A DNA stretch of 64,000 nucleotides from Hyphomicrobium sp. (GTDB taxonomy: Bacteria > Pseudomonadota > Alphaproteobacteria > Rhizobiales > Hyphomicrobiaceae): NCBI RefSeq assembly GCF_051860585.1, contig NZ_JBHYDS010000011.1, forward strand, positions 27,093 to 91,092. Reading direction: 5' to 3'. A model generated the notes under the pieces. It was given only the letters and a program-made list of their open reading frames with translations, ran no database searches and was not told where the DNA came from. The position numbers were made by a program, and so were the translations under genes. Shown here piece by piece: positions 1 through 16,850 of this stretch; position 1 is the stretch's first letter, and the number at the start of each line of letters is the position of its first letter.

Positions 1-80
1 GTGGCCGCCTCGGCGGCGGACACGGAGGCGGCGGCCGGCGCCGCTGATCGCCCCTAATGGAAAATTCAGTGGAGGCTCCC

Positions 81-1028
81 ATGACCCTCGCCGCAACGAT
101 CGCCAGAACATTTTTTCTCAGCATCGCCGTCCCGGCCGCGGCACTTGCCTTCGTGTCCTGCGCAGCTTCGGCAGCGCCAACCAAACAGGCGACCTTCGCG
201 TCGCCGCAAGAGGCCGCCGAGGCGCTCGTCGCGGCCGTGCGGTCGGGCGACGCGGCCGACATCGTCAAGGTGCTCGGACCGGACGGCCGCGCGATCGCGA
301 GTTCGGGAGACGCCGTCGCCGACGCGTCCGCACGTGAGCGCTTCGTCGCGGCTTACGATGAACAGAACCAGATCCGGCAGGCGGGCGACGGCCCGCTGAC
401 ACTCTACCTCGGCCATGACGACTATCCCTTTCCGCTGCCGCTGGTGTCGGCTGATGGCAAATGGCGCTTCGACACGGCAGCCGGCGCGGAAGAGATCCTC
501 GACCGGCGCATCGGCGAGAATGAGCTGGCGGCGATCGAAGTGATGCGCGCGTACGTCGACGCACAGCGCGAATATGCCGAGACTGACTGGGACGGAAAGG
601 GCGCGCAGTACGCCCGCCGCCTGCTGAGCCGGGAGAACGTGAAGGACGGTCTCTATTGGCCGACCGCGGAAGGCGAACCGGAAAGTCCCCTCGGCCCGCT
701 TGTCGCCGAGGCCCGCGCGGAAGGGTATCGCAAGAAGAGAAGGGAACCCGAGCCCTACCACGGCTACCTCTTCCGGGTGTTGACCGCACAAGGCCCGCAC
801 GCCTCCGGCGGCGCGCGCACCTACATCGTCAACGGACGCATGATCGGCGGTTTTGCGCTCATCGCCACGCCGGCCGAATACGGAAATTCCGGCGTGAAGA
901 CCTTTGTCGTCGATCAGGACGGCGTCGTGTTCGAAAAGGACCTGGGCGAGAACACGCCCCCCGCGGCCAATAGCATCGAAGCCTTCAACCCCGAGAGCGG
1001 ATGGTCGTCCGTATCGAACACAAAGTGA
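81..1028 (+). CDS. DUF2950 family exported protein
   Basis: Signal peptide; FASPQEAAEALVAA, PFPLPLV, RRIGENEL, GLYWP, PYHGYLFR and FALIATPAEYGNSGVKTF motifs typical of DUF2950. ATG at 81 follows GGAGG. Confidence 0.85.
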   Translation: MTLAATIARTFFLSIAVPAAALAFVSCAASAAPTKQATFASPQEAAEALVAAVRSGDAADIVKVLGPDGRAIASSGDAVADASARERFVAAYDEQNQIRQAGDGPLTLYLGHDDYPFPLPLVSADGKWRFDTAAGAEEILDRRIGENELAAIEVMRAYVDAQREYAETDWDGKGAQYARRLLSRENVKDGLYWPTAEGEPESPLGPLVAEARAEGYRKKRREPEPYHGYLFRVLTAQGPHASGGARTYIVNGRMIGGFALIATPAEYGNSGVKTFVVDQDGVVFEKDLGENTPPAANSIEAFNPESGWSSVSNTK

Positions 1029-4708: not shown

Positions 4709-5740
4709 CTATCGAGCCAATGCGACGGGTTCCCTGTAGCTCTCGCCCTTGGCCATCATGGCCCAGGCCATACGTGCGATCTTGTTGGCGAGCGCGATCG
4801 CCGCGACTTTCGTCGGTCGGCGCTCGAGAAGTTTTGCAAGCCACGGGCGATGTTTGGTGCCGTGGATCCTGGCGTAGCGGATCACGGCCAGTGCGCCCGC
4901 ACAGAAGAGCGAGCGCAGATAGCGATCGCCCTGCTTGGTGATGCTGCCGAGCTTCTCTTTGCCACCGCTGGAGTTCTGTTTCGGCACCAGACCGACCCAT
5001 GCCGAGAAGTCGCGGCCGGATCGGAACGCCTTCGGATCGGCAACGCTCGCGACCAGTGCGGTTGCGAGTGCAGGACCGACGCCGGGGAGTTCGTCGAGCC
5101 GGCGGCTTGTCTCGTTCGAGCGATGCCAGGCGTTGATCTGGCGGTCGAACTCCAGGATCTGAGCTTTGAACTTGCTGAGCAGCGCACCCAGGGCTTCGAG
5201 ACACGCACGCGCGACCTCGGGAATACGCTCGTCCCTTTCATCGGCAACGGTGTAGAGCAACTCCTCCACGCCGTTGCGTCCGACCGGCGCCACGATACCG
5301 AACTCGGCCAGATGGGCGCGGATGGTGTTGATGACCGCAGTCTGCTGCCGGATGAAGAGGTGTCGCGTACGATGAAGCATTAGGCAGCTCTGCTGCTCGG
5401 TCGTTTTGGTCGGCACGAAGCGCATGCTCGGCCGCTGCACCGCCTCACAGATGGCCTCGGCATCGGCAGCACCGTTCTTCTGGCGTTTGACATAGGGCTT
5501 CACGTAGGCCGGGGGCATGAGCCGCACGGTATGCCCGAGGGCCTGCAGCTCGCGCGACCAATGATGCGACGTGGCACAGGCCTCAATGCCAACTAGGCAG
5601 GGCGGCAGCTTCTTGAAGAACGCGAGCACGTACCGGCGCTTCAGCTGTCGGCCGACAACAACGCTGCCCTGCGCATCGACCCCATGAACCTGAAAGACAG
5701 ACTTTGCGATGTCGAGGCCAACGACTGTGATTGCCTGCAT
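4709..5740 (-). CDS. IS110 family DEDD recombinase/transposase
   Basis: GLDIAK, GIEACAT, KNGAADAEAI, LDELPGVG, GLVPKQNSSGGK, KQGDRYLR, ALANKIAR motifs. One catalytic Asp (usual KND) reads KNG. Confidence 0.96.
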   Translation of the reverse strand: MQAITVVGLDIAKSVFQVHGVDAQGSVVVGRQLKRRYVLAFFKKLPPCLVGIEACATSHHWSRELQALGHTVRLMPPAYVKPYVKRQKNGAADAEAICEAVQRPSMRFVPTKTTEQQSCLMLHRTRHLFIRQQTAVINTIRAHLAEFGIVAPVGRNGVEELLYTVADERDERIPEVARACLEALGALLSKFKAQILEFDRQINAWHRSNETSRRLDELPGVGPALATALVASVADPKAFRSGRDFSAWVGLVPKQNSSGGKEKLGSITKQGDRYLRSLFCAGALAVIRYARIHGTKHRPWLAKLLERRPTKVAAIALANKIARMAWAMMAKGESYREPVALAR

Positions 5741-5874: not shown

Positions 5875-7476
5875 TTATTTCGGCGCGATGACGGCCTTAG
5901 GCGGTTCGTTGCGATAGCGCCAGAATGCGGCTGCGCCCTGCTCAATACGCTCCATCATCGTTCCGCGAGCGTCGGGTGGATGGGTGCCGTCCATCAAGAG
6001 CACGCCGAGGTCCTGAAGGAGTGCAGCCTTTTCGGCGAATCCGCTGTGGTTCAAGCCAAAGAACTCCGTGCTTGTCGCCGTTACGTCAATCGTCTCCACG
6101 CCGGCGACAACAAGAGGAGTCGAAGGTGGGGCCGGGACGTCACCAGCACGCGCAACGCCGCCCGCAACGGTCCGAGAAGCGATAAGGGCTTTATCGCTCG
6201 AAGACGCGTAAAGGGTCACCCCTTGCGCAAAACTACCCAGATTGGTCGCGAGCGTCTCGAACACATCCCGGTCGATATCCGGCGCCGCGAGAATAATTTG
6301 GGAAACGACAGCACCGCCCTTAAGTCCGCCGGCGAGTTGAATCTTTTCAAGAGTGCGCAAGAGCGCCGCGTTGCCCATGCTGTGCGCGATAAGATGGACC
6401 TTTGTGGCTTTCGACTGCGTCGCCACCAGCTCGATGAAGTTGCGCAAGTAGTCGACGGACTGGTCAGCACTGTCCTTGTCGTATAGGTAGCCGGTCAATC
6501 CGCCGCCAGAGGGCCAGCTATAGAGGAAAGGTACACCGTCGAAGCCTATATCGTAGGCGATCTGGGCCGTGCGATAGAGGGCATTTTCGAACGAGACGTT
6601 GTAGCCGTGCACAAAGATGAAGGCTTGGTCCTTGAACGTTTGTGACGCGCCAAGCTGCTGTCGAACCGCCTCGATAAATTTCTCGCGACTGAGAACGCCG
6701 ATGTCTTGGATTGTAAAGTGTCGCCGCGGATCTTCGCTCAGCTCCAGTAGGGTGACGCCGAAAATCGAAAGCGCCCAGGGTCTTTCAATTATTGCCCGGT
6801 AATGGTCCTTGGGAATCGTAACAAGGGCTTTTCCTAGAACGAGGGCGCGCGCTCGCGCGCCAGCGAAAGATGCGCGCTCCGTTCCCGACGCTTGTTTGCG
6901 GTCGGTGCCGAAGAACACTGGGACGGCGTCGTAAGGCTCGTCTGCCGCTTCGTCAACGCCGGGGACCGGCCCTCTTTCGACCAACGCGTCATCGGGGCTG
7001 GACGATCCGCTGGCGTTAAGCTGGCTCGCCATGGCCTCATCGGTTTCAGCTTGGTCTCCGTCACCTCGCAGGCGGTGGACCAGCGCGCGCTCCTGATAAG
7101 CGGAGGCAAGCTTTGGATCGAGGGTGATCGCGTGCGCAAGCTCGGCGAGCGCACGGTCCACATCGCCGGCCAGTCGCAACACCAAAGCCTTGGCGACATA
7201 TGACCTCGCTTTATTCGGATCGAGCGCGATTGCCTTGTCCGAGTCGGAAATTGCACTGTCGATCTTCCCCAGCTCGGCGTAGGCGCGTGCCCGGAACAAG
7301 TGGGCCTCGACAAGCCGTTCGCTGGCTGTGTCGCCCGCGACGATGATTTCCGTGCAAGCTTGTACTCTTGTCGAAAGCTCGCCGCTTTCGCAGTCCTGCA
7401 AAACGTCCGCGCTGCCAACCGAGCTCACGGCGAGCCAGACGATCAGCGCAAGAAGGCCAGAAGGTCGGCGCAGCAT
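5875..7476 (-). CDS. Exported TPR-repeat + DUF900 alpha/beta hydrolase (esterase-like)
   Basis: Signal peptide, three TPRs, VPVFFGTDR, FVHGYNVSF, YSWPSGG, HLIAHSMG, LAAPDID, terminal HS; GGGGAG RBS. Confidence 0.85.
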   Translation of the reverse strand: MLRRPSGLLALIVWLAVSSVGSADVLQDCESGELSTRVQACTEIIVAGDTASERLVEAHLFRARAYAELGKIDSAISDSDKAIALDPNKARSYVAKALVLRLAGDVDRALAELAHAITLDPKLASAYQERALVHRLRGDGDQAETDEAMASQLNASGSSSPDDALVERGPVPGVDEAADEPYDAVPVFFGTDRKQASGTERASFAGARARALVLGKALVTIPKDHYRAIIERPWALSIFGVTLLELSEDPRRHFTIQDIGVLSREKFIEAVRQQLGASQTFKDQAFIFVHGYNVSFENALYRTAQIAYDIGFDGVPFLYSWPSGGGLTGYLYDKDSADQSVDYLRNFIELVATQSKATKVHLIAHSMGNAALLRTLEKIQLAGGLKGGAVVSQIILAAPDIDRDVFETLATNLGSFAQGVTLYASSSDKALIASRTVAGGVARAGDVPAPPSTPLVVAGVETIDVTATSTEFFGLNHSGFAEKAALLQDLGVLLMDGTHPPDARGTMMERIEQGAAAFWRYRNEPPKAVIAPK

Positions 7477-7502
7477 TTGCAATCTCCCCACGCACGTTAC
7501 GA

Positions 7503-10466
7503 CTATGGCGGCGGCGACCGCTGCACACGGGCAAGCAAAAGATCGGGGACCGCGAGCGGCATGTTGACTGTCGGCGTTTGGCGATTGGCGGTCAGGTCTC
7601 TGACGCGCTCCTTGACGTACGTCTGCAGCATCGACGTCGTAATGTAGTCGCGATCGCGATATTCGGCTGCCCCGTTTATCCCTTCGACGACGGCCTTCGT
7701 GAAGGCTCCGTTTTTCCAGATTGCGGTTTCCAGAGAATTCTGCTTTCCGGTCGACGAAGCATACACGATGACGCCCATGGACGGCTGGCTTACTTGACTG
7801 ACGAAACCGATCACGTCCATCGGCACAAGTCCTGGGCCGAATATTCCGCCAGCGCGACAGGTATCGACAAAAAGCACCCTGCTGCCGACAATGCGCTTCA
7901 AGGCGGAGAGCAACTCGACGTAAGAGAGCGCAGTGTTCGGGAGCTGGGAGAGATTGGCGTCACGGGGTAGAAAATAGTAAATCCCGTCGCGGGTATCCAA
8001 ACCGTGACCGGCAAGGAAGACCATTCCAATGTCTGTCGGGCCGACCATCTTTGTCAGCCAGTCAAGTCCGCTGCGCATTCCTTCCAGAGTCGCCTCTTGG
8101 TTCGTAATGATTTTTGAAACCACGTCGACGAACGCTTTGTCTTTTTGCTGCACGACGGCGCTTACGAAGTCAGAGGCGTCCTTGGCGGGAAAGCTAAGTT
8201 TCAATTTCTTGTTGGCGTATTCGCTGACGCCGATGGCCAGCACATAGACTTTGCGTTTTTCAGCAGCGATGCCGGCTTGCTCGCCTGTCCATTTGAGGCG
8301 GACAGATGCCGGCTCGCTCGTCGAGAATCGATTGCTTGCAAAGAGCACCACTTCGCTATCCCGTTGCGGAACGATGATCTTGCGTTCGCCGATGACCTCA
8401 TTGCCCGCGCCGAGAGGAGGCGCCTCAAAAGTTCCGAGCGGATGGTCATCACTGCGTATGATGACCTCGTTTATGGGCTCACCCGATGGCGCTCGCAGAC
8501 GGTAACGCAGGACGACCTCGGGGCTGTTGATGCTTGCTCCGTTCTGAGGCTCCAGTATCTCGATGACCGGCGGCAGCAGCTCGGCGAAGTCCCGTTGCTT
8601 TTCCTCTCGGCCGCCTTCCGCGTTCGCTTCGCGAATTGCCTGAGCTTCGTCCAGAGCAGCGAGGGTCTTCACGACGATGCTTGGCTTGTAGTACTTGTCT
8701 CTGAAGCGTCCGACCGAAAAGAAATCCGCGGAATTATCGCGGCCGCGATTGACCTGCCACCCAACAAGCGAGTCGCCGCCTACGGACGACATGAAGTATC
8801 CGGATGGTGTCCAAGCGACCCAGCGCGCTCCGTCCGGATGTGGGAAGAAGGCCAGCAGTTCGGTCCCGGTGTCCATCGCGTACCAGCGGATGGTGCCGTC
8901 TCCGAGCGCGGCAACGACCAGCCGGTTGTCAGCGGTGGCCACCAAACCGCGAGCGGCGAAAGGAAGTTGAGTCGACCATAGAACCTTCGCTTCCGCATCG
9001 TAGCGTATGATGCGCCACGCGGTTCCCAAGAGAAGCGTCTTTGCGTCCGCCGCAAAGGTCAGGGACAAAGCCTGTTCCAGGGTTTTCAGCGGCAAAGGAA
9101 TGCCGTTGAGCGTTGGCTCGTAGCTTCGGCTCCAGTTGCGCACGTCGAGATCGGGCACATTGGTGACAGGAGAGGTCATCTCGATGTCGGCGGGTCCGTC
9201 GCCCTTCTCGATCACGCGGTCCAACAGAGAGAAGTACGCCGGCTCTGCACCAGATGGCTCGTAGGCGAACCGAATGGCAGTTCCGTCACGCGATACGGAA
9301 AGTCGGTCACCGACCTCGGTGTAATCAGCGACCTTGAGCCGCCGTTCCGTCGTCAACTTGTCGTTGGGTCCGATGAGCCCGATGTAGGGAACCTCGCTCG
9401 TGAAAGCCAATCCCCCGGTCGAGATGCCCGTCATACGCATGATTTGATTGGAGGGGCCCGGGATATCGAGCGGTCGCCCCCTGCCGCCGTCCGCCCAGCG
9501 GCGGAATGGAAAGCGATTCCCCTTTTGCCAGGTGCCTCCCGCATACAGCGACTTGCCGTCGGGCGACCACACGACACGCCACAAGGCACCATTGTCGACC
9601 CCACGCACGTCGGGACTGAACAGATCGGTCAGGTCGGTCGCGGAGATGACGTCGACCGCTGCGTGCCAGCGCTCTTCGGATTTTATGGACTCGTCATATG
9701 CGACGGCAAGCTGCGTCCCGTCCGGCGAGAAGCTTACGCCATCGGGCCGGCGACCCTCGCGCATGGTGCGGCTGGCGATCAGTTTGAAATTGCTGTCGTA
9801 GAGGCGAATCTTGCCATCGTAGCAGGATGTGACGAGCCGGCCGGTCGGGTCGAACTCAACCCATACGCTGTTCGAGCCATAGTCACGATCCTCGAACGCG
9901 AGGGAATAGTCGCTTGTCCGATAGACACGCAGGCCCTTTCCCGCCTTCAGCGCGAACGCAAAATACTTCCCATCTTTGGAGTAGGCAATGTGGTTGGCCC
10001 GATGCGGCAAATCGCAGACGGACTTGCGCATGTCGCCCACTTTGACGTCGATCACGTAGAAGCACCAGGGGCCGTCCACTCCGGCCCAGGCGCCCGTCCA
10101 GCCGGTTGTGATCAGCGTGTTGCCGTCAGGAGAGAATTCGACCGCGTACACCGCGCCTTCGTTGCCTTTGCCAACCGGCAGACGGATCGTGCGCGTCGGC
10201 TCCAGCTTCGGAATGGACCAGATGCGGACGGTCTGGTCATAGGCCGCGGTCGCCAGATGCGTGCCATCGGCGCTCGACGCGAGACCGAGAATAATGCCGG
10301 TGTGATCGCCTGTTTCGATTCGGAGTTTGGGATCCGGAACGACGTCCTGCGCCGGCGCAAAGCTTGTCCAAGCGCTTAATAAAAGCCCAATCAGAATGGT
10401 CTTAAGAGGAGAATTACGCAACCATGACCCCCGTGGCGTTGGCGATGAGCCTACGCGAACCCGCAA
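7503..10466 (-). CDS. Exported WD40 beta-propeller + caspase-like (peptidase C14) protein
   Basis: LRIETGDHT start, WD repeats, WVAWTPSGYF, Ig-like linker, VLAIGVSEY, FLAGHG (His), VDTCRAG (Cys), NGAFTKA, QTP. True start may be ~50 nt downstream. Confidence 0.88.
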   Translation of the reverse strand: MRVRVGSSPTPRGSWLRNSPLKTILIGLLLSAWTSFAPAQDVVPDPKLRIETGDHTGIILGLASSADGTHLATAAYDQTVRIWSIPKLEPTRTIRLPVGKGNEGAVYAVEFSPDGNTLITTGWTGAWAGVDGPWCFYVIDVKVGDMRKSVCDLPHRANHIAYSKDGKYFAFALKAGKGLRVYRTSDYSLAFEDRDYGSNSVWVEFDPTGRLVTSCYDGKIRLYDSNFKLIASRTMREGRRPDGVSFSPDGTQLAVAYDESIKSEERWHAAVDVISATDLTDLFSPDVRGVDNGALWRVVWSPDGKSLYAGGTWQKGNRFPFRRWADGGRGRPLDIPGPSNQIMRMTGISTGGLAFTSEVPYIGLIGPNDKLTTERRLKVADYTEVGDRLSVSRDGTAIRFAYEPSGAEPAYFSLLDRVIEKGDGPADIEMTSPVTNVPDLDVRNWSRSYEPTLNGIPLPLKTLEQALSLTFAADAKTLLLGTAWRIIRYDAEAKVLWSTQLPFAARGLVATADNRLVVAALGDGTIRWYAMDTGTELLAFFPHPDGARWVAWTPSGYFMSSVGGDSLVGWQVNRGRDNSADFFSVGRFRDKYYKPSIVVKTLAALDEAQAIREANAEGGREEKQRDFAELLPPVIEILEPQNGASINSPEVVLRYRLRAPSGEPINEVIIRSDDHPLGTFEAPPLGAGNEVIGERKIIVPQRDSEVVLFASNRFSTSEPASVRLKWTGEQAGIAAEKRKVYVLAIGVSEYANKKLKLSFPAKDASDFVSAVVQQKDKAFVDVVSKIITNQEATLEGMRSGLDWLTKMVGPTDIGMVFLAGHGLDTRDGIYYFLPRDANLSQLPNTALSYVELLSALKRIVGSRVLFVDTCRAGGIFGPGLVPMDVIGFVSQVSQPSMGVIVYASSTGKQNSLETAIWKNGAFTKAVVEGINGAAEYRDRDYITTSMLQTYVKERVRDLTANRQTPTVNMPLAVPDLLLARVQRSPPP

Positions 10467-10502
10467 ACGGACGATGCTCTATTTGCGGGCTCGATCCGTC
10501 GC

Positions 10503-10682
10503 TTATTCGCCGCTTCCGCTAGGGGTCGGAGTGTCGCCTCCCTCGCCGGAGCCACTTTCACCAGAACCACTTTCGCCCCCACCTGCGACGACGGGATCGT
10601 AGCTGAGAACCAAAACGGCCGCAGATGCGGTCAGCAGTGCCGCGAGCGCCCAGGCGACAACCGAATACTTCCTCATCGCCAT
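10503..10682 (-). CDS. Small secreted Gly/Ser/Glu-rich peptide A (59 aa; not in ORF track)
   Basis: MAMRKYSVVAWALAALLTASAAVLVLSYDPVVAGGGESGSGESGSGEGGDTPTPSGSGE*, translated by hand; GGTGAGG RBS; paralog directly upstream. Confidence 0.8.
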   Translation of the reverse strand: MAMRKYSVVAWALAALLTASAAVLVLSYDPVVAGGGESGSGESGSGEGGDTPTPSGSGE

Positions 10683-10780
10683 GGCAAATCGACCTCACCT
10701 CAATGGTTCGAATCAACGCTTCCAACCAAACGTTTTTCTAGATGCGTCGCGGCCGTTTGGTCTGGCTCGCCGAGCCAAGC

Positions 10781-10936
10781 TCACTCTCCAGACGTCTGGA
10801 CTTCGCCGGTTCCGCTTGTCTTGCCTTCGTCGTCAGGCCCGGCGGCAACGGGGTCGTTGCTCAGAACCAGCCCGGCAATCGACGTCGTGAGCAACGCAGC
10901 CAATACCCACGCGAGAATGGAATTCTTCATAGACAT
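10781..10936 (-). CDS. Small secreted peptide B (51 aa; not in ORF track), paralog of peptide A
   Basis: MSMKNSILAWVLAALLTTSIAGLVLSNDPVAAGPDDEGKTSGTGEVQTSGE*; AAGGGGG RBS. Confidence 0.8.
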   Translation of the reverse strand: MSMKNSILAWVLAALLTTSIAGLVLSNDPVAAGPDDEGKTSGTGEVQTSGE

Positions 10937-11094
10937 GACCCCCTTAAATTCTTGCGGAGCGAGTTTTCAGCAAAACTTGTAACTTACGATTATCATGCGT
11001 GCACAGACAGCGATAGGTCATTGCTATCTATAAATTGTGTTGTCGACTGGTTTGTCACAGCGCCGCTTCAGCGGTCATCCAAACAGGGATTGCC

Positions 11095-12870
11095 ATGGCG
11101 GAAGATCATCAAGACTCACGATTGTTTTCAACGGACTTCCAGTCCCTGAGCCTGTTTCGCATTGTTTTTTCGATCTACCTGCTCGGGGATTTCTTTCTCA
11201 TGAACGCGCCGTATTTCGGCGACTTTTATACCGACGCCGGTTTTCTGCCATTATCGTCACTCGAGGCGAACCGCGACATATCGGGCATGCCGGCCATCTA
11301 TCCCGTGCTCAAGTTGCTGGAATGGCTGCAGCTTCCAGCCCTATTGCCGTACCTCTATCCCGCCGCGTTGATTGGCTTTGCACTGGGATACCGGACGCGT
11401 TGGTGCAACGGCATCGCCTTCCTCCTCTATTGTTACCTTTTCTGGCGCAATCCCTACATCAGATCGGGGGCGGAGAGCCTCGCACATCTGTTGCTGTTGT
11501 GGTGCCTTTTCCTGCCGATGAACCGATACTGGGGCGTCGATGCGGCGCTCGACAAGGGCGCGCGCAATCGCGCCTACCCTGTGCTTCCGTACATCGCGAT
11601 CAAGCTGCAGGTTTGCTCGGTCTACTTTTTTGCGGCACTTTTCAAGCTGGGCGGTGCACCCTGGCGAGACGGCTTCGCGATCTCCTGGGCGCTAAGCGAC
11701 AACGCATTTGGAGGTACTCCGGCGGGGCTCTATCTCGTCGAGAATGCCCCCTTCGTCCTCACGCTGGCGACCTACGCGGTGATGGCTCTCCAGCTGTCGT
11801 TTCCGCTGCTCGTATTCGCACCCTGGCGAAACGACGTCGCGCGCGCGGTTGCGTTGGGCGGTGTAGCGCTGATGCACATTGCATTCGTGTTTGCGCTGAA
11901 CATCGGAGGATTTCCATTCCTTTGCTTGACGATGCTTCTGCTGTTCGTCCCCGACTCCTGGGTTGAGAAGCTCTTCCAATGGCGCAGGGAGAGACTCCGG
12001 CGCGTTTCGATCTATTTCGAGCCGGACTGCGGGTTCTGCGAGAAGACCGCGCTACTCCTGCGCGAATTCCTGCTGCCCCCGTCTACGCCTGTGCTGCCGG
12101 CATCCGCCGATCCTGAAATGCTGCGGCTTTTGCGCGAGCAAAACTCCTGGGTCGTTCGTGGCGCCGACGGCCAAGTGCATCTCAAGTGGCGCGCGGTGTC
12201 CTACGTCTTGAGCGAGAGTCTTTTGCTTTGGCCGTTGGCCTGGTTCATGGATCTAGGCTTGCTCCGGCGCTCCTTTGAACGGCTTTACGACCTCTTCGGC
12301 CGACACCGGGGGCCGCTCGGATCACTCGCCGCGTTCTTTCTGAAGTTCAGAAACGAGGCTGTACCTGGCCAGCCTGCTCTCGCTCTATGCGCTTGGTTGA
12401 TGCTGCTCGCGCTCGTCGGCAACATTCATCATGCCCTGAGACCCTCGTATGACAGGCCGACGGGGCTCGATCATCTCGTGGCCGCATGGCAAGTAGGGCA
12501 GCGTTGGAGTTTGTTTGCCCCAATCCCGATACACTCCCAACATAGCTACGAGGCGATCGCGCGCACGGCCGATGGCTCGACCTTCGATATCTTGGCGTTG
12601 TCCACAAAGCCCCTCCTGTGGATGCGGGGTAAAGACGGGCTGGAATTTCCCAACCATCGCTGGCTCAAATACTTCAATCGGGTCGATAGCCTAGCCGAAA
12701 GGGATCGCGTCGCGCTAGGCCACTATCTCTGCCGGCTCGCGCGCGAAAGGAGCACCGCGACCGTTGATGTCCGGAATGTCGTTTTCACGTCGTCACGCGC
12801 GTCGTTCGTGGCGCACTTGCCAGAGAGTCCCTCACGCTCCAAAACGCACACATTCGAATGCGGCAAGTAA
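11095..12870 (+). CDS. HTTM-domain membrane protein (gamma-carboxylase/SdpB-like) fused to a DCC1-like thiol-disulfide domain and an SdpA-like C-terminus
   Basis: SLSLFRIVF, LALGYRTR, WRNPY, VYFFAALFKLGGAPWRDG, ALMHIAF TM block; FEPDCGFC (DCC1/DUF393); QRWSLFAPIP. Confidence 0.8.
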   Translation: MAEDHQDSRLFSTDFQSLSLFRIVFSIYLLGDFFLMNAPYFGDFYTDAGFLPLSSLEANRDISGMPAIYPVLKLLEWLQLPALLPYLYPAALIGFALGYRTRWCNGIAFLLYCYLFWRNPYIRSGAESLAHLLLLWCLFLPMNRYWGVDAALDKGARNRAYPVLPYIAIKLQVCSVYFFAALFKLGGAPWRDGFAISWALSDNAFGGTPAGLYLVENAPFVLTLATYAVMALQLSFPLLVFAPWRNDVARAVALGGVALMHIAFVFALNIGGFPFLCLTMLLLFVPDSWVEKLFQWRRERLRRVSIYFEPDCGFCEKTALLLREFLLPPSTPVLPASADPEMLRLLREQNSWVVRGADGQVHLKWRAVSYVLSESLLLWPLAWFMDLGLLRRSFERLYDLFGRHRGPLGSLAAFFLKFRNEAVPGQPALALCAWLMLLALVGNIHHALRPSYDRPTGLDHLVAAWQVGQRWSLFAPIPIHSQHSYEAIARTADGSTFDILALSTKPLLWMRGKDGLEFPNHRWLKYFNRVDSLAERDRVALGHYLCRLARERSTATVDVRNVVFTSSRASFVAHLPESPSRSKTHTFECGK

Positions 12871-12880
12871 GGGGTCTCGA

Positions 12881-14101
12881 CTAGGAAGCGTCGGCGCTGG
12901 TTGCAATGACGTTCTTGAGTCCGCTTGGCAATCGCGCAATGGCGAGAGCGAGCAATTGTGCCCGCGGAACAAGCGAACTCACCTCGATATACTCGTCATC
13001 TGAATGACCGTTGTGGCCAACAGGCCCGACCGAACAAAGTGTCGGGCAGCCCTGAGCCGCTGTAATGGCCGAGTCGGCGCCTCCTCCAACTGAAATGCCT
13101 TGGACGTCGAGGCCCAAAACCTGTCCTGCCATCTTGTATTCCGCCAAGAGCCAGGTTGACTCCTCGGTGATTTCGAGTGGCTCACGCTCGCTGTCGATCG
13201 TCAGCGTCGCATGAGTCCCTTCGAGGTGAGCGGTCTCGATAACCCTTCGGACTGCGGCTAGAGCCGCTTCACGGTCGTTGCAGTGGACATAGCGCAAGTC
13301 GATACGCGCAGAGGCGTAAGGGGCGATCGTGTTGACGCTCTGGCCGCCCGAGACCATGCCGACGTTGACCGTGACGCCTTTGTCGAAATCTGTGAGCGCG
13401 TGAAGGCGCACGACCTTGCGCGCCAGTTCCTCGATAGCTGAGATGCCATCTTTCGGGGCTGCGCCGGCATGGGCCGCCTTACCGAAAATTTCGACCGTCA
13501 TGAATACTCCGCCTTTTCGCGCGACGACGACGATATCCTTTGTGGGCGAAGGCTCGGAGTTGAAAGCGGCCCGCGCACGCCGACCCTGAACCTCGATATA
13601 GGCGCGTGACGACGGCGACGAGATCTCCTCATCGGCGGTGATGAGTGCCACTAGCGGACCAGGATGGCCCCCGAAGCGCTTGAAAGCCGCCAGCACGAAT
13701 GCGTTCATGACCAGCCCTGCCTTCATGTCCGCGACGCCAGGACCAAACGCATTGTCGCCGTCGATGCGAAAAGGCCGCCGTGTCGCCTCACCGGAGCCGA
13801 AAACCGTATCTCGGTGACCCATCAGCAGGATATCCCGCTGGTCTTGCGCGGCCGGCTGGGGGAGCAGCACGCGCATCAGTTCGCCATACGTGTCGTTTGG
13901 CGTGACCTCGATCTCGATCCCCGCTGCAGAGAAGAAGTCCCTCAGAATAGTACCTGCCGCATCGACGCCGCGCTTGTCGAAAGAGCCGGAATCCTGGTTC
14001 ACCAGTCTGGCGAGCAGGTCGAGCATCGCTTGTTGCTGAGCAGCCAACCACTCGAGGACATTCTGTTGCGCGATGTCGGTCAGACGCGCGTTAGCCGCCA
14101 T
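12881..14101 (-). CDS. M20 family metallopeptidase (glutamate carboxypeptidase-like)
   Basis: MGHRDTV, GPGVADMKAG, DEEISS, NSEP, GKAAHAG, GGGADS, GHSDDEY. Confidence 0.9.
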   Translation of the reverse strand: MAANARLTDIAQQNVLEWLAAQQQAMLDLLARLVNQDSGSFDKRGVDAAGTILRDFFSAAGIEIEVTPNDTYGELMRVLLPQPAAQDQRDILLMGHRDTVFGSGEATRRPFRIDGDNAFGPGVADMKAGLVMNAFVLAAFKRFGGHPGPLVALITADEEISSPSSRAYIEVQGRRARAAFNSEPSPTKDIVVVARKGGVFMTVEIFGKAAHAGAAPKDGISAIEELARKVVRLHALTDFDKGVTVNVGMVSGGQSVNTIAPYASARIDLRYVHCNDREAALAAVRRVIETAHLEGTHATLTIDSEREPLEITEESTWLLAEYKMAGQVLGLDVQGISVGGGADSAITAAQGCPTLCSVGPVGHNGHSDDEYIEVSSLVPRAQLLALAIARLPSGLKNVIATSADAS

Positions 14102-14383: not shown

Positions 14384-14635
14384 CTCAGCGTCTGCGCAGT
14401 CGCCTGGCTCGCGACGTCTGCATTGTAGGGTCTGTCCCTTGATATTGAGCAACTCCGGAGCGTCTTCGCTTCGGTTATCAGTAAGCTGAAATCATTGTCA
14501 TTCGCCGGGTTGTGACATTGCCGCCGATAACTGCAGAGCCCGATCTCTCTCTTGCACCCCGCTCTCAGGCGGGCGAGGCTTGGAGACGACGCACAATTGG
14601 ATTTAAGGTTTCTCGTGGCTATTGGGAGACTTCAT

Positions 14636-15781
14636 ATGAAACAGTCCATCACTCTTGTGCATGGAACGTTTGCCCCCGAAGCGCCATGGACCAACGAAGG
14701 GTCCTATCTTTGCCAAGCATTGCAGGTTCGCTTTACCGGTACGGCAGAAATCCATCGCTTTCAATGGACCGGAAAAAACAACCACAGACACCGTCGGCAG
14801 GCCGCCTCTGAATTAGAGGCGCACTTGACAGCTGAAGTTGAGCGGAAACCGCATTCCGATCACTTTATCATCTGCCATAGTCACGGCGGCAACATCGCCC
14901 TTATGGCACTCCGGGACCCCTCGCTACAGAGCAAAGTCGCGGCAGTTATTTGCCTCAACACACCTTTCCTCCACGCTTTTCAACGGAGCCTCTTCACAGC
15001 ATTGTTTCTACCGGTCACAATCATTTTGGTAGCCAGCCTAATCATGTTCTACCCGGCCGCACTTGCCGCGACCGAAGCTTCCTGGTCGGCGGAGTTCACG
15101 CTATTGGCAGCGGGATGCTGCTTAGTCTTGCTCGCAGCTCTCCTGAATCGGCTGTTTCCAATTGATGCATTGCAGAATCTCGTGCCCAAAGTCATTGACG
15201 AATTGACGTTGCCCGCTATCAGCAACGTGCGGGTCACCTGCATCACCACAGCGAGCGACGAAGTCTTCGACGGGTTGAATGGGTTATCTGCATTCAACTC
15301 ATTCCTACTGCATCTTCTTCGTCCCAGACCGCTGTTCGTAACTTTGACCGCAATCGCCGTGACGAGTTTGGCGGGCTGGCTGCCACCGTTCCCTGCGCTT
15401 GAAAGCATTCCATTCCTCGGTAGTGAGCTTGCGCGGATTCGTACTGGTAACGCGGAGACGCTGTCCGCTGCGTCAATCCTCATCTACTCTTTCGCTTCGG
15501 CAGCACTCTATGGCGCTACCCTCATCGTCGTCGTACATCTTTTCGCCTGGGCGAGGCTGAAATGGTACGGCGCTCAAGGGATCCCTCTCTATGCTGCGCC
15601 GCACGTAGCGGTGTTGACAACGCCGACCCCGGTCACTGCGGAAAGCATTCGCTTCGTGGAGATAGACGCATTTCAGCTGAGGCTGAACCATTCGGCCTCC
15701 TACACCAACCCGGAAATCGTGGCACTCGTCGTTGACTTGTTGAAGCCAGCGCCAAAACCGCCAGAGCAGGCTATGGCCTAG
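14636..15781 (+). CDS. Membrane-associated alpha/beta hydrolase (lipase-like)
   Basis: ITLVHGTF, FQWTG.N, ICHSHGGNIAL nucleophile motif, several TM helices, terminal NHSASY. Confidence 0.75.
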   Translation: MKQSITLVHGTFAPEAPWTNEGSYLCQALQVRFTGTAEIHRFQWTGKNNHRHRRQAASELEAHLTAEVERKPHSDHFIICHSHGGNIALMALRDPSLQSKVAAVICLNTPFLHAFQRSLFTALFLPVTIILVASLIMFYPAALAATEASWSAEFTLLAAGCCLVLLAALLNRLFPIDALQNLVPKVIDELTLPAISNVRVTCITTASDEVFDGLNGLSAFNSFLLHLLRPRPLFVTLTAIAVTSLAGWLPPFPALESIPFLGSELARIRTGNAETLSAASILIYSFASAALYGATLIVVVHLFAWARLKWYGAQGIPLYAAPHVAVLTTPTPVTAESIRFVEIDAFQLRLNHSASYTNPEIVALVVDLLKPAPKPPEQAMA

Positions 15782-15989: not shown

Positions 15990-16637
15990 TAAGATATCGA
16001 TCTTCTCGGCGATTTCTATCGCGTCGTCGACCTCAATGCCGAGGTACCTTACCGTGCTTTCGATCTTCGAATGCCCAAGCAGGAGTTGGACAGCTCAAAG
16101 GTTTCCGGTCCGCCGATAGATGAGCACCGCCTTTGTCCGACGCAGCGAGTGCGTACCGAACTTGGCCGGGTCGAGACCGATACTGGCGATCCACTCAAGA
16201 ACCAGGCGAGCATACTGCCGCGTTGTCAGCCCACCTCTGTCGCCACGACCAGCGAATAGGAATTGACCCGGCTTGCGTCCAGTCAAGCGCAGATACTAGT
16301 CGATGGCCTGGCGTGTCTGATCGGCCAGCTCAAACCGTACCGGTCTGCCAGTTTTCTTCTGTCGGATTGTTGCGCGGTCCATCGAGTATCCGCTCGGCGC
16401 AACATCATCTACGCGAACGGCCACTACGTCACAGCCGCGAAGCTTGCTGTCGATCGCTAGGTTGAACAGAGCAAGGTCTCTTTTCTTGCCCTCGATTTGG
16501 AGCTTTGTACGGATCGACCAGACGTGGCTCGGGCGCAAGGGCGGCTTCGCGCCCACCAGTTTGCCCTTGTTCCAGGGGACGCGAGCGGGCTTGGCAGCCG
16601 GTTCAGTAGCAGTAGGTGCACTCGGATGGTCTTCCAT
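15990..16637 (-). pseudogene. Minimal (~210 aa) tyrosine recombinase of the PWNKGK type, two in-frame nonsense codons
   Basis: PWNKGKLVGAKPPL, IDSKLRGCD, QKKTG, THSLRRTK, LLGHSKIESTVRYLG all in one frame, interrupted by TAG (16296-98) and TGA (16095-97); AAGGAG RBS. Confidence 0.9.
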
Positions 16638-16850
16638 GGTCAGTCTCCTTTTCTGAGAGACAAACCAGCATGCGCCTCCGTCCACCTAACCTGCTGATCT
16701 CACGACCGGTCTCAGCCTACTTCTTCCATTTATTGGTTACTGCCCGTCGAGTTTGACCCATAGCTGTCATCGACACCGGCGATTGCGGCTCATTCGCGAA
16801 TTGATTGCCCGTTGCCGCACGAGCGGAGGTACAGACTTCCGCTTTGCTTT

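What the first reader, a model, noticed from the sequence alone, without database searches (positions are those of the whole stretch)
10503..12870. Two hidden paralogous secreted Glu/Gly/Ser peptides head-to-head with a gamma-carboxylase/SdpB-like enzyme: candidate new peptide-modification system
Seen: two sub-60-aa ORFs missed by the ORF track, each with an RBS. They share the leader AWxLAALLTxSxAxLVLSxDPVxAG and then diverge into acidic tails built from (S/T)G(S/T)GE units; both end in SGE. That is a conserved-leader/variable-core layout. About 160 bp away on the other strand is an HTTM protein whose VYFFAALFKLGGAPW segment (11620-11664) aligns with the YFIAGVKKLDADW segment carrying the catalytic Lys of vitamin K-dependent gamma-glutamyl carboxylase. 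Known: the HTTM protein SdpB and SdpA mature the exported peptide SdpC in Bacillus subtilis. Inference: these peptides are exported substrates, possibly Glu-carboxylated (metal-binding) or otherwise matured by the HTTM enzyme, or they act as ligands/substrates for the downstream WD40-caspase.
Basis: partly seen in the sequence, partly recalled or inferred. Interest (0 to 1): 0.85.

Follow-up and report, generated by a model that had tools for sequence, protein, structure and literature searches.

The report
Exported mini-peptides with GGCX-like enzyme
Two tiny genes beside a membrane enzyme related to the human vitamin-K carboxylase belong to a rare, apparently undescribed family of exported mini-peptides. 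These peptides nearly always sit next to that enzyme and, where the flank is long enough to read, beside a periplasm-facing caspase or TIR death-type protein. This points to a new peptide maturation or signalling system, but not specifically to Glu carboxylation.

Summary
Two paralogous small genes (59 and 49-51 aa) lie about 160 bp from a divergent HTTM gene, and upstream of, on the same strand as, an exported WD40-caspase gene.

They are real genes: pN/pS is 0.09-0.43, and both are already called in public annotation.

They belong to a rare family. I collected 38 unique members; a profile search of 1.84 billion proteins gave 35 small hits. A family profile hit only within about 800 bp of HTTM genes at least 46% identical to the window's, and nowhere else in 1.7 Mb.

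Each peptide is a Sec-type signal peptide (the -3/-1 rule holds in 38/38) followed by a 4-29 aa polar tail. Between orthologues the tail is usually as conserved as the signal part, or more so.

The enzyme has the GGCX fold (Z 24.5) and keeps the catalytic Lys. However, it has Gln at the Asp263 position, Arg at His160 and Phe at Asn290. It carries a DCC CxxC insert, and the genome has no detectable menaquinone pathway.

The partner proteins swap between loci: an exported WD40-caspase, or a TIR-STAND protein with a TM helix and a PvdO-like domain predicted to face the periplasm.

Best reading: exported precursor peptides are matured by the HTTM enzyme and then bound or processed by these periplasmic partners. 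Glu carboxylation is not supported, since only 12/38 tails contain Glu.

The parts
10781..10930 (-). pepB: precursor mini-peptide, 49 aa (51 aa if read from the ATG at 10936). Signal peptide MKNSILAWVLAALLTTSIAGLVLSNDPVAA, then a 19-aa tail GPDDEGKTSGTGEVQTSGE.
   Evidence: ORF and RBS. The 49-aa form is a called gene in public records. Orthologue in L108 has pN/pS 0.40 and 84% tail identity. Family HMM E 7.5e-14.
10503..10682 (-). pepA: precursor mini-peptide, 59 aa. Signal peptide ending DPVVA, then a 26-aa tail GGGESGSGESGSGEGGDTPTPSGSGE.
   Evidence: ORF and RBS GAGGTGAGG. Called gene in NCBI. Orthologue in L108 has pN/pS 0.19 and 81% tail identity. Family HMM E 1.4e-14.
10457..10492 (-). 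Stem-loop of about 12 bp directly after the pepA stop codon, between the peptide genes and the caspase gene. It has no U tract. It may be an attenuator or an mRNA-stabilising element; its role is inferred only.
   Evidence: RNA fold -33.6 kcal/mol, z -2.4, 3 of 200 shuffles fold as well. The pattern scan did not call it a terminator.
11095..12870 (+). HTTM-DCC membrane enzyme, 591 aa. It has a GGCX-like transmembrane domain (K184, Q233, R144), a thioredoxin-fold DCC1-like insert with C312-x-x-C315 (about residues 303-415), one more TM helix (426-447), and a C-terminal domain (457-591) predicted to be periplasmic.
   Evidence: Pfam HTTM 1.7e-17. DCC1-like E 0.008 and DUF5819 E 0.07, both weak. 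AF2 model pLDDT 88. GGCX is the only strong structural match, Z 24.5 over 393 residues. Residue mapping.
7503..10421 (-). Exported WD40 (two propellers)-caspase protein, 972 aa from the TTG at 10421. It has a signal peptide MRNSPLKTILIGLLLSAWTSFAPA|QD. The His (AGHG) and Cys (DTCRAG) motifs of the catalytic dyad are present.
   Evidence: Pfam WD40 9e-23 and Peptidase_C14 4e-11. Sequence. Signal peptides are present in all homologues beside HTTM. Adjacent to HTTM in 12 distinct loci.
5875..7491 (-). Exported TPR-DUF900 alpha/beta hydrolase, the last gene of the minus-strand block.
   Evidence: Pfam DUF900 5e-56 plus TPRs. Signal-like N-terminus. Follows the caspase in the P0002 contig and in L023 as well.
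12881..14101 (-). M20 peptidase, convergent with the HTTM gene. It is a neighbour only in the closest relatives, so membership in the system is doubtful.
   Evidence: Pfam M20 6e-27. Adjacent in the P0002 contig, L023, L024 and L107. Not found beside the more distant family members.
4709..5740 (-). IS110-family transposase flanking the block. This marks an accessory, mobile context.
   Evidence: Pfam Transposase_20 7e-25 and DEDD_Tnp_IS110 1e-11. HTTM and peptides were not found in 60 related genomes.

Best explanation
The locus is a peptide-plus-enzyme module.

Shown:
- pepA and pepB are real genes of a rare family of 35-68-aa precursors.
- Each has a positively charged N-terminus, an 18-23-residue hydrophobic helix, a Pro, and an A/V/S/T/I-x-A/S site. 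A 4-29-aa, almost purely polar tail follows (Gly, Ser, Asp, Pro, Asn, Thr, Glu).
- These genes occur, in one to four tandem copies, essentially only next to one subfamily of HTTM-DCC membrane proteins with the fold of vitamin-K-dependent carboxylase.
- Wherever enough flank is available, that pair sits beside a protein that puts a binding or hydrolytic domain into the periplasm. This is an exported WD40-caspase (often with an exported TPR-alpha/beta hydrolase), a beta-lactamase-fold hydrolase, or a TIR-STAND protein with a TM helix and a PvdO-like domain predicted to be periplasmic.

Inferred:
- The peptides are inserted by Sec with the tail in the periplasm.
- The tail is acted on at the outward-facing active site of the HTTM enzyme, which has Lys184 as base, a Gln233/Arg144 pocket, and a cytoplasmic CxxC domain that may supply or remove electrons through a quinone, presumably ubiquinone.
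- Signal peptidase I or the partner hydrolase then releases a short modified peptide.
- That peptide is the ligand or substrate of the WD40-caspase (in this window) or of the TIR-STAND receptor (in other loci).
- The chemistry of the modification is unknown. It is probably not classical Glu gamma-carboxylation.
For: Real genes:
- pN/pS is 0.09-0.43 with pS about 0.6.
- RBSs are present.
- Both are called genes in public data.

Linkage, starting from HTTM:
- 28 of 36 loci with an HTTM at least 41% identical carry 1-4 family peptides, usually divergent upstream and sometimes just downstream on the same strand.
- The 8 without are contig-truncated on one side or are the two most divergent.
- There were 48 HMM hits, all within about 800 bp of such an HTTM gene. 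None occurred elsewhere in 1.71 Mb, including about 130 loci of HTTM genes at or below 36% identity.

Linkage, starting from the peptide:
- A profile search of 1.84e9 proteins gave 39 hits, 35 of them 37-68 aa.
- At least 15 of these are the peptides of my HTTM loci or near copies of them (judged by eye, not by alignment).
- Of the new ones with usable context, 2 of 4 have HTTM as the divergent neighbour, at 53% and 55% identity.

The block moves as a unit:
- The window is an inversion of [pep-HTTM] relative to L023 and L024.

Signal-peptide anatomy:
- Position -1 is Ala or Ser in 38/38.
- Position -3 is A/V/S/T/I in 38/38.
- Pro lies at -4 to -6 in 34/38.
- Tails are 2% hydrophobic.

The tail is functional:
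- Orthologous tails are mostly as conserved as the signal part, or more so. Examples are 84 vs 50%, 81 vs 66% and 100 vs 75-81%, though two pairs run the other way (50 vs 87%, 40 vs 68%).
- Paralogues in one locus share the C-terminal motif: SGE, STGY, NGSN, DSDR, ANC, GGST.

Enzyme:
- GGCX is the only strong structural match (Z 24.5).
- K184 corresponds to K218 and is invariant.
- CxxC is conserved in 80/82 sequences.

Partners:
- All the WD40-caspases have signal peptides.
- TIR-STAND-FGS proteins have one TM helix after a KGRKRR stretch, so the PvdO-like domain (227 bits) is predicted to lie outside.
- Peptide class follows the HTTM clade, while the partner type switches.
Against: - There is no direct evidence of export, cleavage or modification.
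- The hydrophobic region is long for a cleaved signal peptide, so the peptides could stay membrane-anchored.
- No single residue is common to all tails that could be 'the' modified residue. Asp or Asn occurs in 35/38, Glu in 12/38 and Cys in 8/38.
- The active site departs from GGCX at Asp263, Asn290 and His160, so even quinone-dependent oxidation is an assumption.
- Two peptide-profile hits (P0122, P0137) have no HTTM gene on their 3.9 and 6.8 kb contigs.
- WD40-caspase homologues exist in 18 related genomes without HTTM or peptides, so the caspase does not depend on this module.
Confidence: 0.5

Rival explanations
1. The peptides are ligands or substrates of the periplasmic partner proteins only (the caspase, beta-lactamase-fold hydrolase or TPR hydrolase as processing enzymes; the WD40 or PvdO-like domain as receptor). 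The HTTM-DCC protein does not modify them. It acts instead as a co-receptor, membrane scaffold, redox sensor or immunity component.
For: In the window the peptides are transcribed in the same direction as the caspase and DUF900 genes, and elsewhere with a beta-lactamase-fold gene. The HTTM active site lacks Asp263, Asn290 and His160. No conserved target residue exists in the tails.
Against: Peptides follow the HTTM gene, not the partner. The partner type switches while the peptide-HTTM pair persists. In some loci the peptides lie downstream of HTTM on its own strand (L026, L114, L117, L129). None was found beside three HTTM-less caspase homologues. The catalytic Lys and the CxxC are invariant in the subfamily.
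Confidence: 0.2
2. The small proteins are not cleaved precursors. They are permanent single-pass membrane micro-proteins that act as accessory subunits or regulators of the HTTM enzyme, bound helix-to-helix in the membrane with a short periplasmic tail.
For: The hydrophobic stretch of 18-23 residues is the length of a TM helix, and an aromatic Trp is conserved near its start in many members. A preprint predicts an HTTM-DCC protein complexed with the N-terminal TM helix of a DUF5819 partner (10.64898/2026.08.19.745780).
Against: The -3/-1 site with an upstream Pro holds in 38/38 and 34/38. Up to four tandem paralogues differ mainly in the tail. Between orthologues the tail is usually better conserved than the helix. 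The window enzyme already carries its own DUF5819-like C-terminal TM helix and domain.
Confidence: 0.15
3. One reading: the HTTM enzyme is a vitamin-K-type gamma-glutamyl carboxylase that converts Glu in the (S/T)G(S/T)GE repeats into Gla, making metal-binding peptides.
For: The window-clade tails are Glu-rich with a repeated GE. The enzyme has the GGCX fold and Lys218 is kept.
Against: Glu is absent from 26 of 38 family tails, including all tails of several clades. Asp263 is Gln in 26/26, although only Asp or Glu is reported to sustain GGCX activity (PMC13486548). Asn290 is Phe and His160 is Arg. No MenB or Mqn pathway is detectable in a 99.99% complete genome, whereas UbiA is present.
Confidence: 0.07
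4. An SdpC-like or bacteriocin-like toxin system: the peptides are antimicrobial and the HTTM protein is their maturation factor, as SdpB is for SdpC.
For: HTTM proteins are needed for SDP production (own knowledge) and occur in linaridin clusters (PMC9927463). The genes are tandem and variable, and the context is accessory and IS-flanked.
Against: The tails are 4-29 aa, 2% hydrophobic and mostly acidic or neutral. That makes them unlike membrane-active toxins. No immunity or ABC export genes are conserved nearby. The SdpB model scores 37 bits against a cut-off of 178.
Confidence: 0.05

Closest known systems
[quoted passage not shown]
   Same: Whole-protein fold (Z 24.5, 393 residues aligned, model 4-589 to GGCX 32-490). 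The HTTM domain and the catalytic Lys218 (K184) are shared. The active site is expected on the non-cytoplasmic face. The substrate logic is also shared: a recognition segment followed by a flexible acidic segment.
   Different: Asp263 is Gln, Asn290 is Phe and His160 is Arg. A thioredoxin-fold CxxC domain is inserted. The host has no menaquinone pathway. The candidate substrates are 35-68-aa signal-peptide precursors, most without Glu.
SdpA/SdpB/SdpC of Bacillus subtilis
   Same: A Sec-exported precursor whose maturation needs an HTTM membrane protein (own knowledge). There is a distant sequence match to the SdpB model (E 3e-9).
   Different: The score is far below the family cut-off (37 vs 178 bits). 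SdpC is a 203-aa protein that yields a 42-aa hydrophobic toxin. The window has no sdpA/sdpI/sdpR-like arrangement, it lies in a Gram-negative-type locus, and it has the extra DCC and C-terminal domains.
Linaridin clusters (LinH-type HTTM protein plus LinL-type alpha/beta hydrolase)
   Same: [quoted passage not shown]
   Different: Linaridin precursors, as I recall them, have cytoplasmic leaders and hydrophobic Thr-rich cores. The precursors here have signal peptides and polar Gly/Ser/Asp/Asn tails. No decarboxylase, methyltransferase or transporter genes are present.
HTTM-DCC proteins paired with DUF5819 proteins; MloH (bacterial vitamin-K-type carboxylase of malonomycin)
   Same: The HTTM + DCC1-like architecture, with a C-terminal TM helix and domain weakly matching DUF5819. 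As in MloH, this region is fused to the enzyme (preprint 10.64898/2026.08.19.745780).
   Different: Those systems have no associated signal-peptide mini-genes. MloH acts on an Asp in a PKS-NRPS intermediate. The broader HTTM-DCC family has Glu at the Asp263 position in 49/56 sequences, whereas the peptide-linked subfamily has Gln in 26/26.
Phr/RRNPP-type signalling propeptides of Firmicutes
   Same: The precursors are about 40 aa and made of a Sec signal peptide plus a short C-terminal active peptide. They occur as tandem or variable copies with lineage-specific tails (own knowledge).
   Different: No cytoplasmic TPR receptor-regulator is present. The TPR proteins here are exported and fused to hydrolases. 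A dedicated membrane enzyme is present, and the organisms are Pseudomonadota.
NTP-dependent conflict systems with caspase/alpha-beta-hydrolase pairs, TIR, FGS domains and accessory modified-peptide modules (Kaur et al. 2020, PMC7159879)
   Same: The same effector vocabulary: caspase paired with an alpha/beta hydrolase, TIR-STAND and FGS domains. The same idea that a processed or modified peptide could serve as a signal.
   Different: That paper does not mention HTTM or vitamin K. Here the caspase and hydrolase are exported, the STAND protein is membrane-spanning with the FGS domain predicted outside, and the peptide module is HTTM-based rather than radical-SAM or metallopeptidase-based.

Membership tests
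[quoted passage not shown] | HTTM domain and overall GGCX fold | tested here: met
   Pfam HTTM 64 bits against a cut-off of 27.7. VIA-align Z 24.5, 393 aligned; the next unrelated fold scores Z 6.5. Foldseek E 4e-9.
[quoted passage not shown] | Catalytic base Lys218 | tested here: met
   K184 aligns to K218 in the phmmer and profile alignments. It is Lys in 26/26 of the subfamily.
[quoted passage not shown] | Asp263 paired with Lys218 (only Asp or Glu is reported active), Asn290 binding the hydroquinone, and His160 | tested here: not met
   Gln233, Phe264 and Arg144 occupy these positions and are invariant in 26/26. The roles of Asp263 and Asn290 are taken from PMC13486548. The role of His160 rests on my own knowledge. 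The mapping relies on sequence and profile alignment at about 18-20% identity.
[quoted passage not shown] | Conserved carboxylation motif (residues about 374-418) and propeptide exosite | tested here: inconclusive
   The structural alignment spans GGCX 32-490, but no residue-level mapping is available. Model residues 303-415 form a thioredoxin-fold insert that GGCX lacks.
[quoted passage not shown] | Naphthoquinone (vitamin K / menaquinone) cofactor available | tested here: not met
   The best MenB match is 150 bits against a cut-off of 343. There is no MqnA/D match. UbiA scores 368 bits, above its cut-off, in a 99.99% complete genome.
[quoted passage not shown] | Glu-rich substrate segment | tested here: not met
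   This holds for the window clade only. Glu occurs in 12/38 family tails.
SdpB family (TIGR04033) | Score above the curated cut-off | tested here: not met
   37 bits against a cut-off of 178.4.
SdpB family (TIGR04033) | Partner genes sdpA and sdpC-like precursor | not tested
   No SdpA or SdpC model was searched. The neighbouring genes are of other families.
Sec/SPase-I signal peptide | Basic n-region, hydrophobic h-region, and small residues at -3 and -1 after a helix breaker | tested here: met
   All 38 collected peptides were selected to have a K/R in the n-region and a hydrophobic stretch; it is 18-23 residues long. Position -1 is A or S in 38/38, -3 is A/V/S/T/I in 38/38, and Pro lies at -4 to -6 in 34/38. 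No SignalP-type predictor was available.
Sec/SPase-I signal peptide | Actual export and cleavage | not testable with these tools
   This needs fusions or proteomics.
RiPP-like precursor/enzyme pair | Short precursor gene(s) adjacent to a candidate tailoring enzyme, with a conserved recognition part and a variable core | tested here: met
RiPP-like precursor/enzyme pair | Enzyme-dependent covalent modification of the core | not testable with these tools
   This needs LC-MS/MS.
DCC1-like thiol-disulfide oxidoreductase (PF04134) | Family model match and CxxC motif on a thioredoxin fold | tested here: inconclusive
   Pfam 17.8 bits against a cut-off of 27.8, although the family is recorded for many homologues. 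C312/C315 are conserved in 80/82. Residues 299-417 match glutaredoxin/GST folds at Z 4-6.5.
Peptidase C14 (caspase-like) | Domain match and catalytic His/Cys | tested here: met
   43.4 bits against a cut-off of 21.4. The AGHG and DTCRAG motifs are in the sequence.
Known anti-phage defence systems (PADLOC) | Match to a defined system's proteins | tested here: inconclusive
   Only generic caspase and TIR domain hits appeared. HTTM, DUF900 and TPR548 gave nothing.

The most novel reading that the evidence does not exclude
This would be a previously unrecognised periplasmic peptide-signal system. The cell secretes its own lineage-specific mini-peptide, matured by a GGCX-fold enzyme that has been repurposed (the Lys-Glu pair changed to Lys-Gln plus Arg). 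The peptide is read in the periplasm by a WD40 propeller fused to a caspase, or by the PvdO-like ectodomain of a membrane-spanning TIR-STAND (NLR-like) receptor. Self or kin peptide sensing would thus be coupled to proteolytic or NAD-depleting death or immune effectors.
Probability: 0.2. Interest if true: 0.9.

Novelty: new variant of a known kind. Interest (0 to 1): 0.72.

Why it matters
- No substrate or function was found in the literature searched here for the bacterial HTTM-DCC proteins. This subfamily now comes with genetically linked candidate substrates of 4-29 residues. That makes the chemistry of a bacterial GGCX relative directly testable by co-expression and mass spectrometry.
- The peptide family is absent from Pfam and NCBIfam and from the papers searched. 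It uses the Sec signal peptide as the conserved 'leader', which is an unusual layout for a ribosomal peptide system in Gram-negative bacteria.
- The partner swap offers a concrete candidate ligand for bacterial NLR-like and caspase-like proteins, whose triggers are mostly unknown. An exported WD40-caspase alternates with a TIR-STAND protein whose PvdO-like domain is predicted to be periplasmic.

Tried and rejected
- Single-sequence searches with pepA found nothing convincing in 60 related genomes (best E 0.02). In the 5.8-billion protein index it found only itself. The family was reached only through the HTTM neighbour and then by profile.
- Complex prediction (HTTM alignment + pepA) gave no verdict, score 0.00. 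This is not used as evidence either way.
- The look-up of sequencing runs listed no RNA holder, so there is no expression data.
- The sigma-70 promoter and intrinsic-terminator scan of 10300-11200 found none.
- No inverted repeats flank the inverted [pep-HTTM] block. The one weak pair is 74% complementary.
- PADLOC gave no defined defence system.
- A class-level genome search with the peptide alignment gave only weak hits in large ORFs, which are generic signal peptides.
- Peptide-profile hits P0122 and P0137 have no HTTM gene on their contigs. P0121, P0132 and P0139 sit on contigs too short to judge.
- L030:4397-6124 and L032:6190-7908, which lie next to the peptides, are unrelated to each other; L030:4397-6124 was also compared with TPR548 and is unrelated to it. 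They may not be real genes.
- The window ORFs 16095-16685 looked to me like fragments of a tyrosine recombinase, but Pfam gave no hit.
- Rejected: that the two ORFs are chance ORFs.
- Rejected: that the M20 peptidase is a core component. It is adjacent only in the closest clade.


Full report
OBSERVATION

The minus strand carries two small ORFs: 10503-10682 (59 aa) and 10781-10936 (51 aa; more likely 49 aa from the second ATG at 10930). They are 60% identical (E 1e-13). Each has a purine-rich RBS: GAGGTGAGG lies 10 nt upstream for the first ORF, and AAGGGGG lies 8 nt upstream of the second ATG for the other. The HTTM gene starts at 11095 on the plus strand, about 160 bp away. An exported WD40-caspase gene (7503-10421) and a TPR-DUF900 hydrolase gene (5875-7491) follow the peptides on the minus strand.

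ARE THEY GENES?

Yes. Orthologues and paralogues from four other contigs give pN/pS of 0.09-0.43 while synonymous differences are near saturation (pS about 0.6). A contig 96% identical at the HTTM protein has the same 59-aa and 49-aa genes in the same layout.

THE FAMILY AND ITS LINKAGE

Neither the peptide nor the HTTM protein was found in 60 genomes of the same genus, family or order. The block is flanked by an IS110 transposase, so it is accessory.

The HTTM protein has about 95 full-length relatives in metagenomes. I fetched their loci. Among 36 loci whose HTTM protein is at least 41% identical to the window's, 28 carry one to four tandem small ORFs of the same design. These lie divergently upstream of HTTM, or just downstream on its strand. 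The remaining 8 are either cut by a contig end on one side or are the two most divergent.

A profile of the 38 unique peptides hits 48 ORFs at E<0.01. All lie within about 800 bp of such an HTTM gene. None lies elsewhere in 1.71 Mb of six-frame sequence, which includes the rest of the window and about 130 loci of more distant (36% or less) HTTM-DCC genes. Most of these 48 hits are the sequences the profile was built from; the independent parts of this result are the absence of hits elsewhere and one new member (L130).

In the unbiased direction, the same kind of profile run against 1.84 billion representative proteins finds only 39 hits, 35 of them 37-68 aa. At least 15 are the peptides already found beside HTTM or near copies of them, judged by eye. 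Four new hits had usable context:
- Two have an HTTM gene (53% and 55% identical) as the divergent neighbour.
- Two (P0122, next to an IS66 element; P0137, a borderline hit) have none on 3.9 and 6.8 kb contigs.

In the window the [peptides-HTTM] block is inverted as a unit relative to L023 and L024. There the order is M20, peptide, HTTM, caspase, DUF900.

The module is rare. Among 400 genomes sampled across the class, two carried a strong match to the HTTM profile. One of them (G444) has a family peptide just downstream. The other (G312) has none within 1.5 kb and groups with the peptide-less outgroup in the tree.

ANATOMY OF THE PEPTIDES

All 38 start with a K/R-containing n-region and an 18-23-residue hydrophobic stretch; these two features were the criteria used to collect them. 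Not selected for: a Pro at -4 to -6 in 34/38, and then a site with A/V/S/T/I at -3 (38/38) and Ala or Ser at -1 (38/38). Examples are DPVVA|G, SQPAYA|A, TPSYS|G and VPASA|D. This is the signal peptidase I rule.

What follows is a tail of 4-29 residues:
- Composition is Gly 27%, Ser 15%, Asp 12%, Pro 9%, Asn 8%, Thr 7% and Glu 6%, with only 2% hydrophobic residues.
- Tails differ sharply between clades. The window clade has E/G/S-rich tails ending in SGE, TTG or STGY. Other clades have xNC/ASC, GPKxDSDR, GNDN, NSNGSN, GTGGST or DPGCxxxxC.
- Paralogues within a locus share the C-terminal motif.
- Between orthologues the tail is mostly as conserved as the signal part, or more so. Examples are 84% vs 50%, 81% vs 66% and 100% vs 75-81%. 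Two of the 14 pairs run the other way (50% vs 87%, 40% vs 68%).

The tail is therefore the selected product and the signal peptide is the vehicle. Glu occurs in only 12/38 tails, Asp in 30/38, Asp or Asn in 35/38, and Cys in 8/38.

THE ENZYME

- Pfam finds HTTM. The C-terminal half matches DCC1-like and DUF5819 only weakly.
- An AF2 model (pLDDT 88) matches only human GGCX strongly: Foldseek E 4e-9, and VIA-align Z 24.5 with 393 residues aligned, model 4-589 to GGCX 32-490.
- Residues 299-417 match glutaredoxin/GST folds at Z 4-6.5.
- Sequence and profile alignments to GGCX put K184 on the catalytic Lys218, Gln233 on Asp263, Phe264 on Asn290 and Arg144 on His160. The roles of Lys218, Asp263 and Asn290 are taken from bioRxiv 10.1101/2025.02.09.637231 and PMC13486548. 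The role of His160 rests on my own knowledge.
- Across 82 HTTM-DCC sequences, the 26 at least 44% identical to the window's (the peptide-linked clade, though no peptide was found beside a few of them) have K, Q and R at these positions without exception. The 56 more distant, peptide-less ones mostly have K, E (49/56) and A (44/56). The peptide-linked clade has therefore remodelled the pocket: the acidic partner of the Lys was lost and an Arg was gained.
- The CxxC motif is conserved in 80/82 sequences.
- The genome is 99.99% complete. It has no MenB above the cut-off and no MqnA/D, but it has UbiA. Any quinone cofactor would therefore be ubiquinone.
- The SdpB model matches far below its cut-off.

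THE PARTNERS

- A WD40-caspase follows or neighbours HTTM in 12 distinct loci. These include Stellaceae MAGs whose HTTM is only 46-50% identical, and there the two genes abut.
- All these caspases begin with a signal peptide followed by a conserved P-I/L-L-R-I-E-T-G start. The window protein keeps the His and Cys motifs.
- In 4 distinct loci, forming two separate branches of the HTTM tree, the neighbour is instead a TIR-nSTAND1-FGE-sulfatase protein.
  - Its C-terminal domain scores 227 bits on the PvdO model.
  - A single TM helix preceded by KGRKRR separates it from the NTPase. This predicts a cytoplasmic TIR-STAND part and a periplasmic PvdO-like domain.
- In the clade with SQPAYA-type signals, the peptide genes are followed on their own strand by a beta-lactamase-fold (PF00144) hydrolase.
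- The TPR-DUF900 and TPR548 proteins also have signal-like N-termini.
- Every recurrent partner thus places a binding or hydrolytic domain in the compartment where the tails and, by homology with GGCX, the HTTM active site are expected.
- WD40-caspase homologues at 28-36% identity occur in 18 of the 60 related genomes that lack HTTM, and no family peptide was found at the three such loci examined. The peptides therefore track HTTM, not the caspase.

INTERPRETATION

What is shown is a three-way genomic association and the anatomy of its parts. What is inferred is the mechanism:
1. Sec insertion places the tail outside.
2. The HTTM enzyme acts on the tail.
3. SPase I or a partner hydrolase releases it.
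4. The WD40-caspase or the TIR-STAND receptor recognises or processes it.

I give this about 0.5. The main rivals are:
- HTTM is not the modifier and the periplasmic partners are the only enzymes or receptors (0.2).
- The peptides are uncleaved membrane micro-subunits (0.15).
- Classical Glu carboxylation (0.07).
- A toxin system (0.05).

COMPARISON WITH KNOWN SYSTEMS

The module works most like GGCX with its propeptide-bearing substrates and like SdpB/SdpC. It fails the membership tests for both: Asp263, Asn290 and His160 are not conserved, there is no menaquinone pathway, Glu is not a conserved feature of the tails, and the SdpB score is below the cut-off.

The precursors resemble Phr-type propeptides in design. 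The partners use the effector vocabulary of the conflict systems described by Kaur et al. 2020 (PMC7159879). That paper proposes modified-peptide signals but does not mention HTTM.

Full-text searches for HTTM together with precursor peptides, DCC1, SdpB or STAND/caspase/TIR found no description of this arrangement.

LIMITS

- There is no expression, export or chemistry data.
- Catalytic-residue mapping rests on alignments at about 20% identity.
- Many metagenomic contigs are short.
- The peptide profile was trained on the loci it was then scored on. The independent checks are the absence of hits elsewhere, the new member L130, G444, and the two peptide-first look-ups.

Noticed in passing
L027:11641-14580 (-), L026:2925-5792 (+), L109:5527-8409 (+): The TIR-nSTAND1-FGE/PvdO-like proteins beside HTTM homologues have one TM helix (about residues 655-689) after a KGRKRR stretch. 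They are therefore predicted to be membrane-spanning NLR-like receptors with the PvdO-like domain in the periplasm.
   Followed up: partly
window 11095-12870; alignment of 82 HTTM-DCC proteins: There is a subfamily-specific active-site switch. The peptide-linked clade has Gln at the GGCX Asp263 position and Arg at His160 in 26/26 sequences. Peptide-less relatives mostly have Glu (49/56) and Ala (44/56).
   Followed up: partly
window 10466-12880 versus L023 and L024: The [peptide genes + HTTM] block is inverted as a unit relative to the closest homologous loci (order M20, pep, HTTM, caspase, DUF900). No flanking inverted repeats were found.
   Followed up: partly
window 10457-10492 (-): A stem-loop of about 12 bp lies right after the pepA stop codon and before the caspase gene (z -2.4). 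It has no U tract. It may tune the ratio of peptide to caspase transcripts.
   Followed up: partly
L025:3685-5106, L027:5639-7060, L109:1810-3321, L112:2437-3861, L122:2297-3793, L210:1720-2721: In one clade the peptide genes are followed on the same strand by a beta-lactamase-fold (PF00144) serine hydrolase. This takes the position the caspase has in the window.
   Followed up: partly
L211:47-473 (+): Three tandem family peptides have tails DPGCNDQYC, DPGCEGSGCY and DPGCNVQYC. The two Cys are spaced for a small disulfide loop. The contig ends 46 bp upstream, so the neighbour is unknown.
   Followed up: no
window 4709-5740 (-): An IS110-family transposase lies directly beside the DUF900 gene. 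L023 has IS21 genes nearby and L208 has an IS66 element next to a lone family peptide.
   Followed up: partly
window 14552-15781 (+): A 409-aa protein has weak alpha/beta-hydrolase (PGAP1-like) matches at the N-terminus and several hydrophobic segments, two genes away from the HTTM gene. No link to the system was established.
   Followed up: no
window 16095-16685 (-): Two adjacent short ORFs look to me like pieces of a broken tyrosine recombinase (the motif GTHSLRRTKA). Pfam gave no hit at E 0.001, so this is unconfirmed.
   Followed up: partly
G048:C397:2466-5231 (L188), G039:C372 (L189), G019:C274 (L190) and others: WD40-caspase homologues (28-36% identical, about 1000-1500 aa open frames) occur in 18 of 60 related genomes that lack HTTM. 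No family peptide was found at the three such loci examined. This is a wider family of probably exported caspases of unknown role.
   Followed up: partly
window 57-1028 (+): A DUF2950 protein (E 4e-108) lies at the start of the window. It is unrelated to the finding.
   Followed up: no
L031:1786-1914 (-): A 42-aa ORF with a hydrophobic N-terminus (MVEYALLLGLISV...), which looks to me like an Flp-type pilin (not tested against any family model), lies 2.5 kb upstream of an HTTM homologue. The profile of the peptide family does not hit it. It shows that small hydrophobic ORFs near HTTM must be checked against the family profile.
   Followed up: partly
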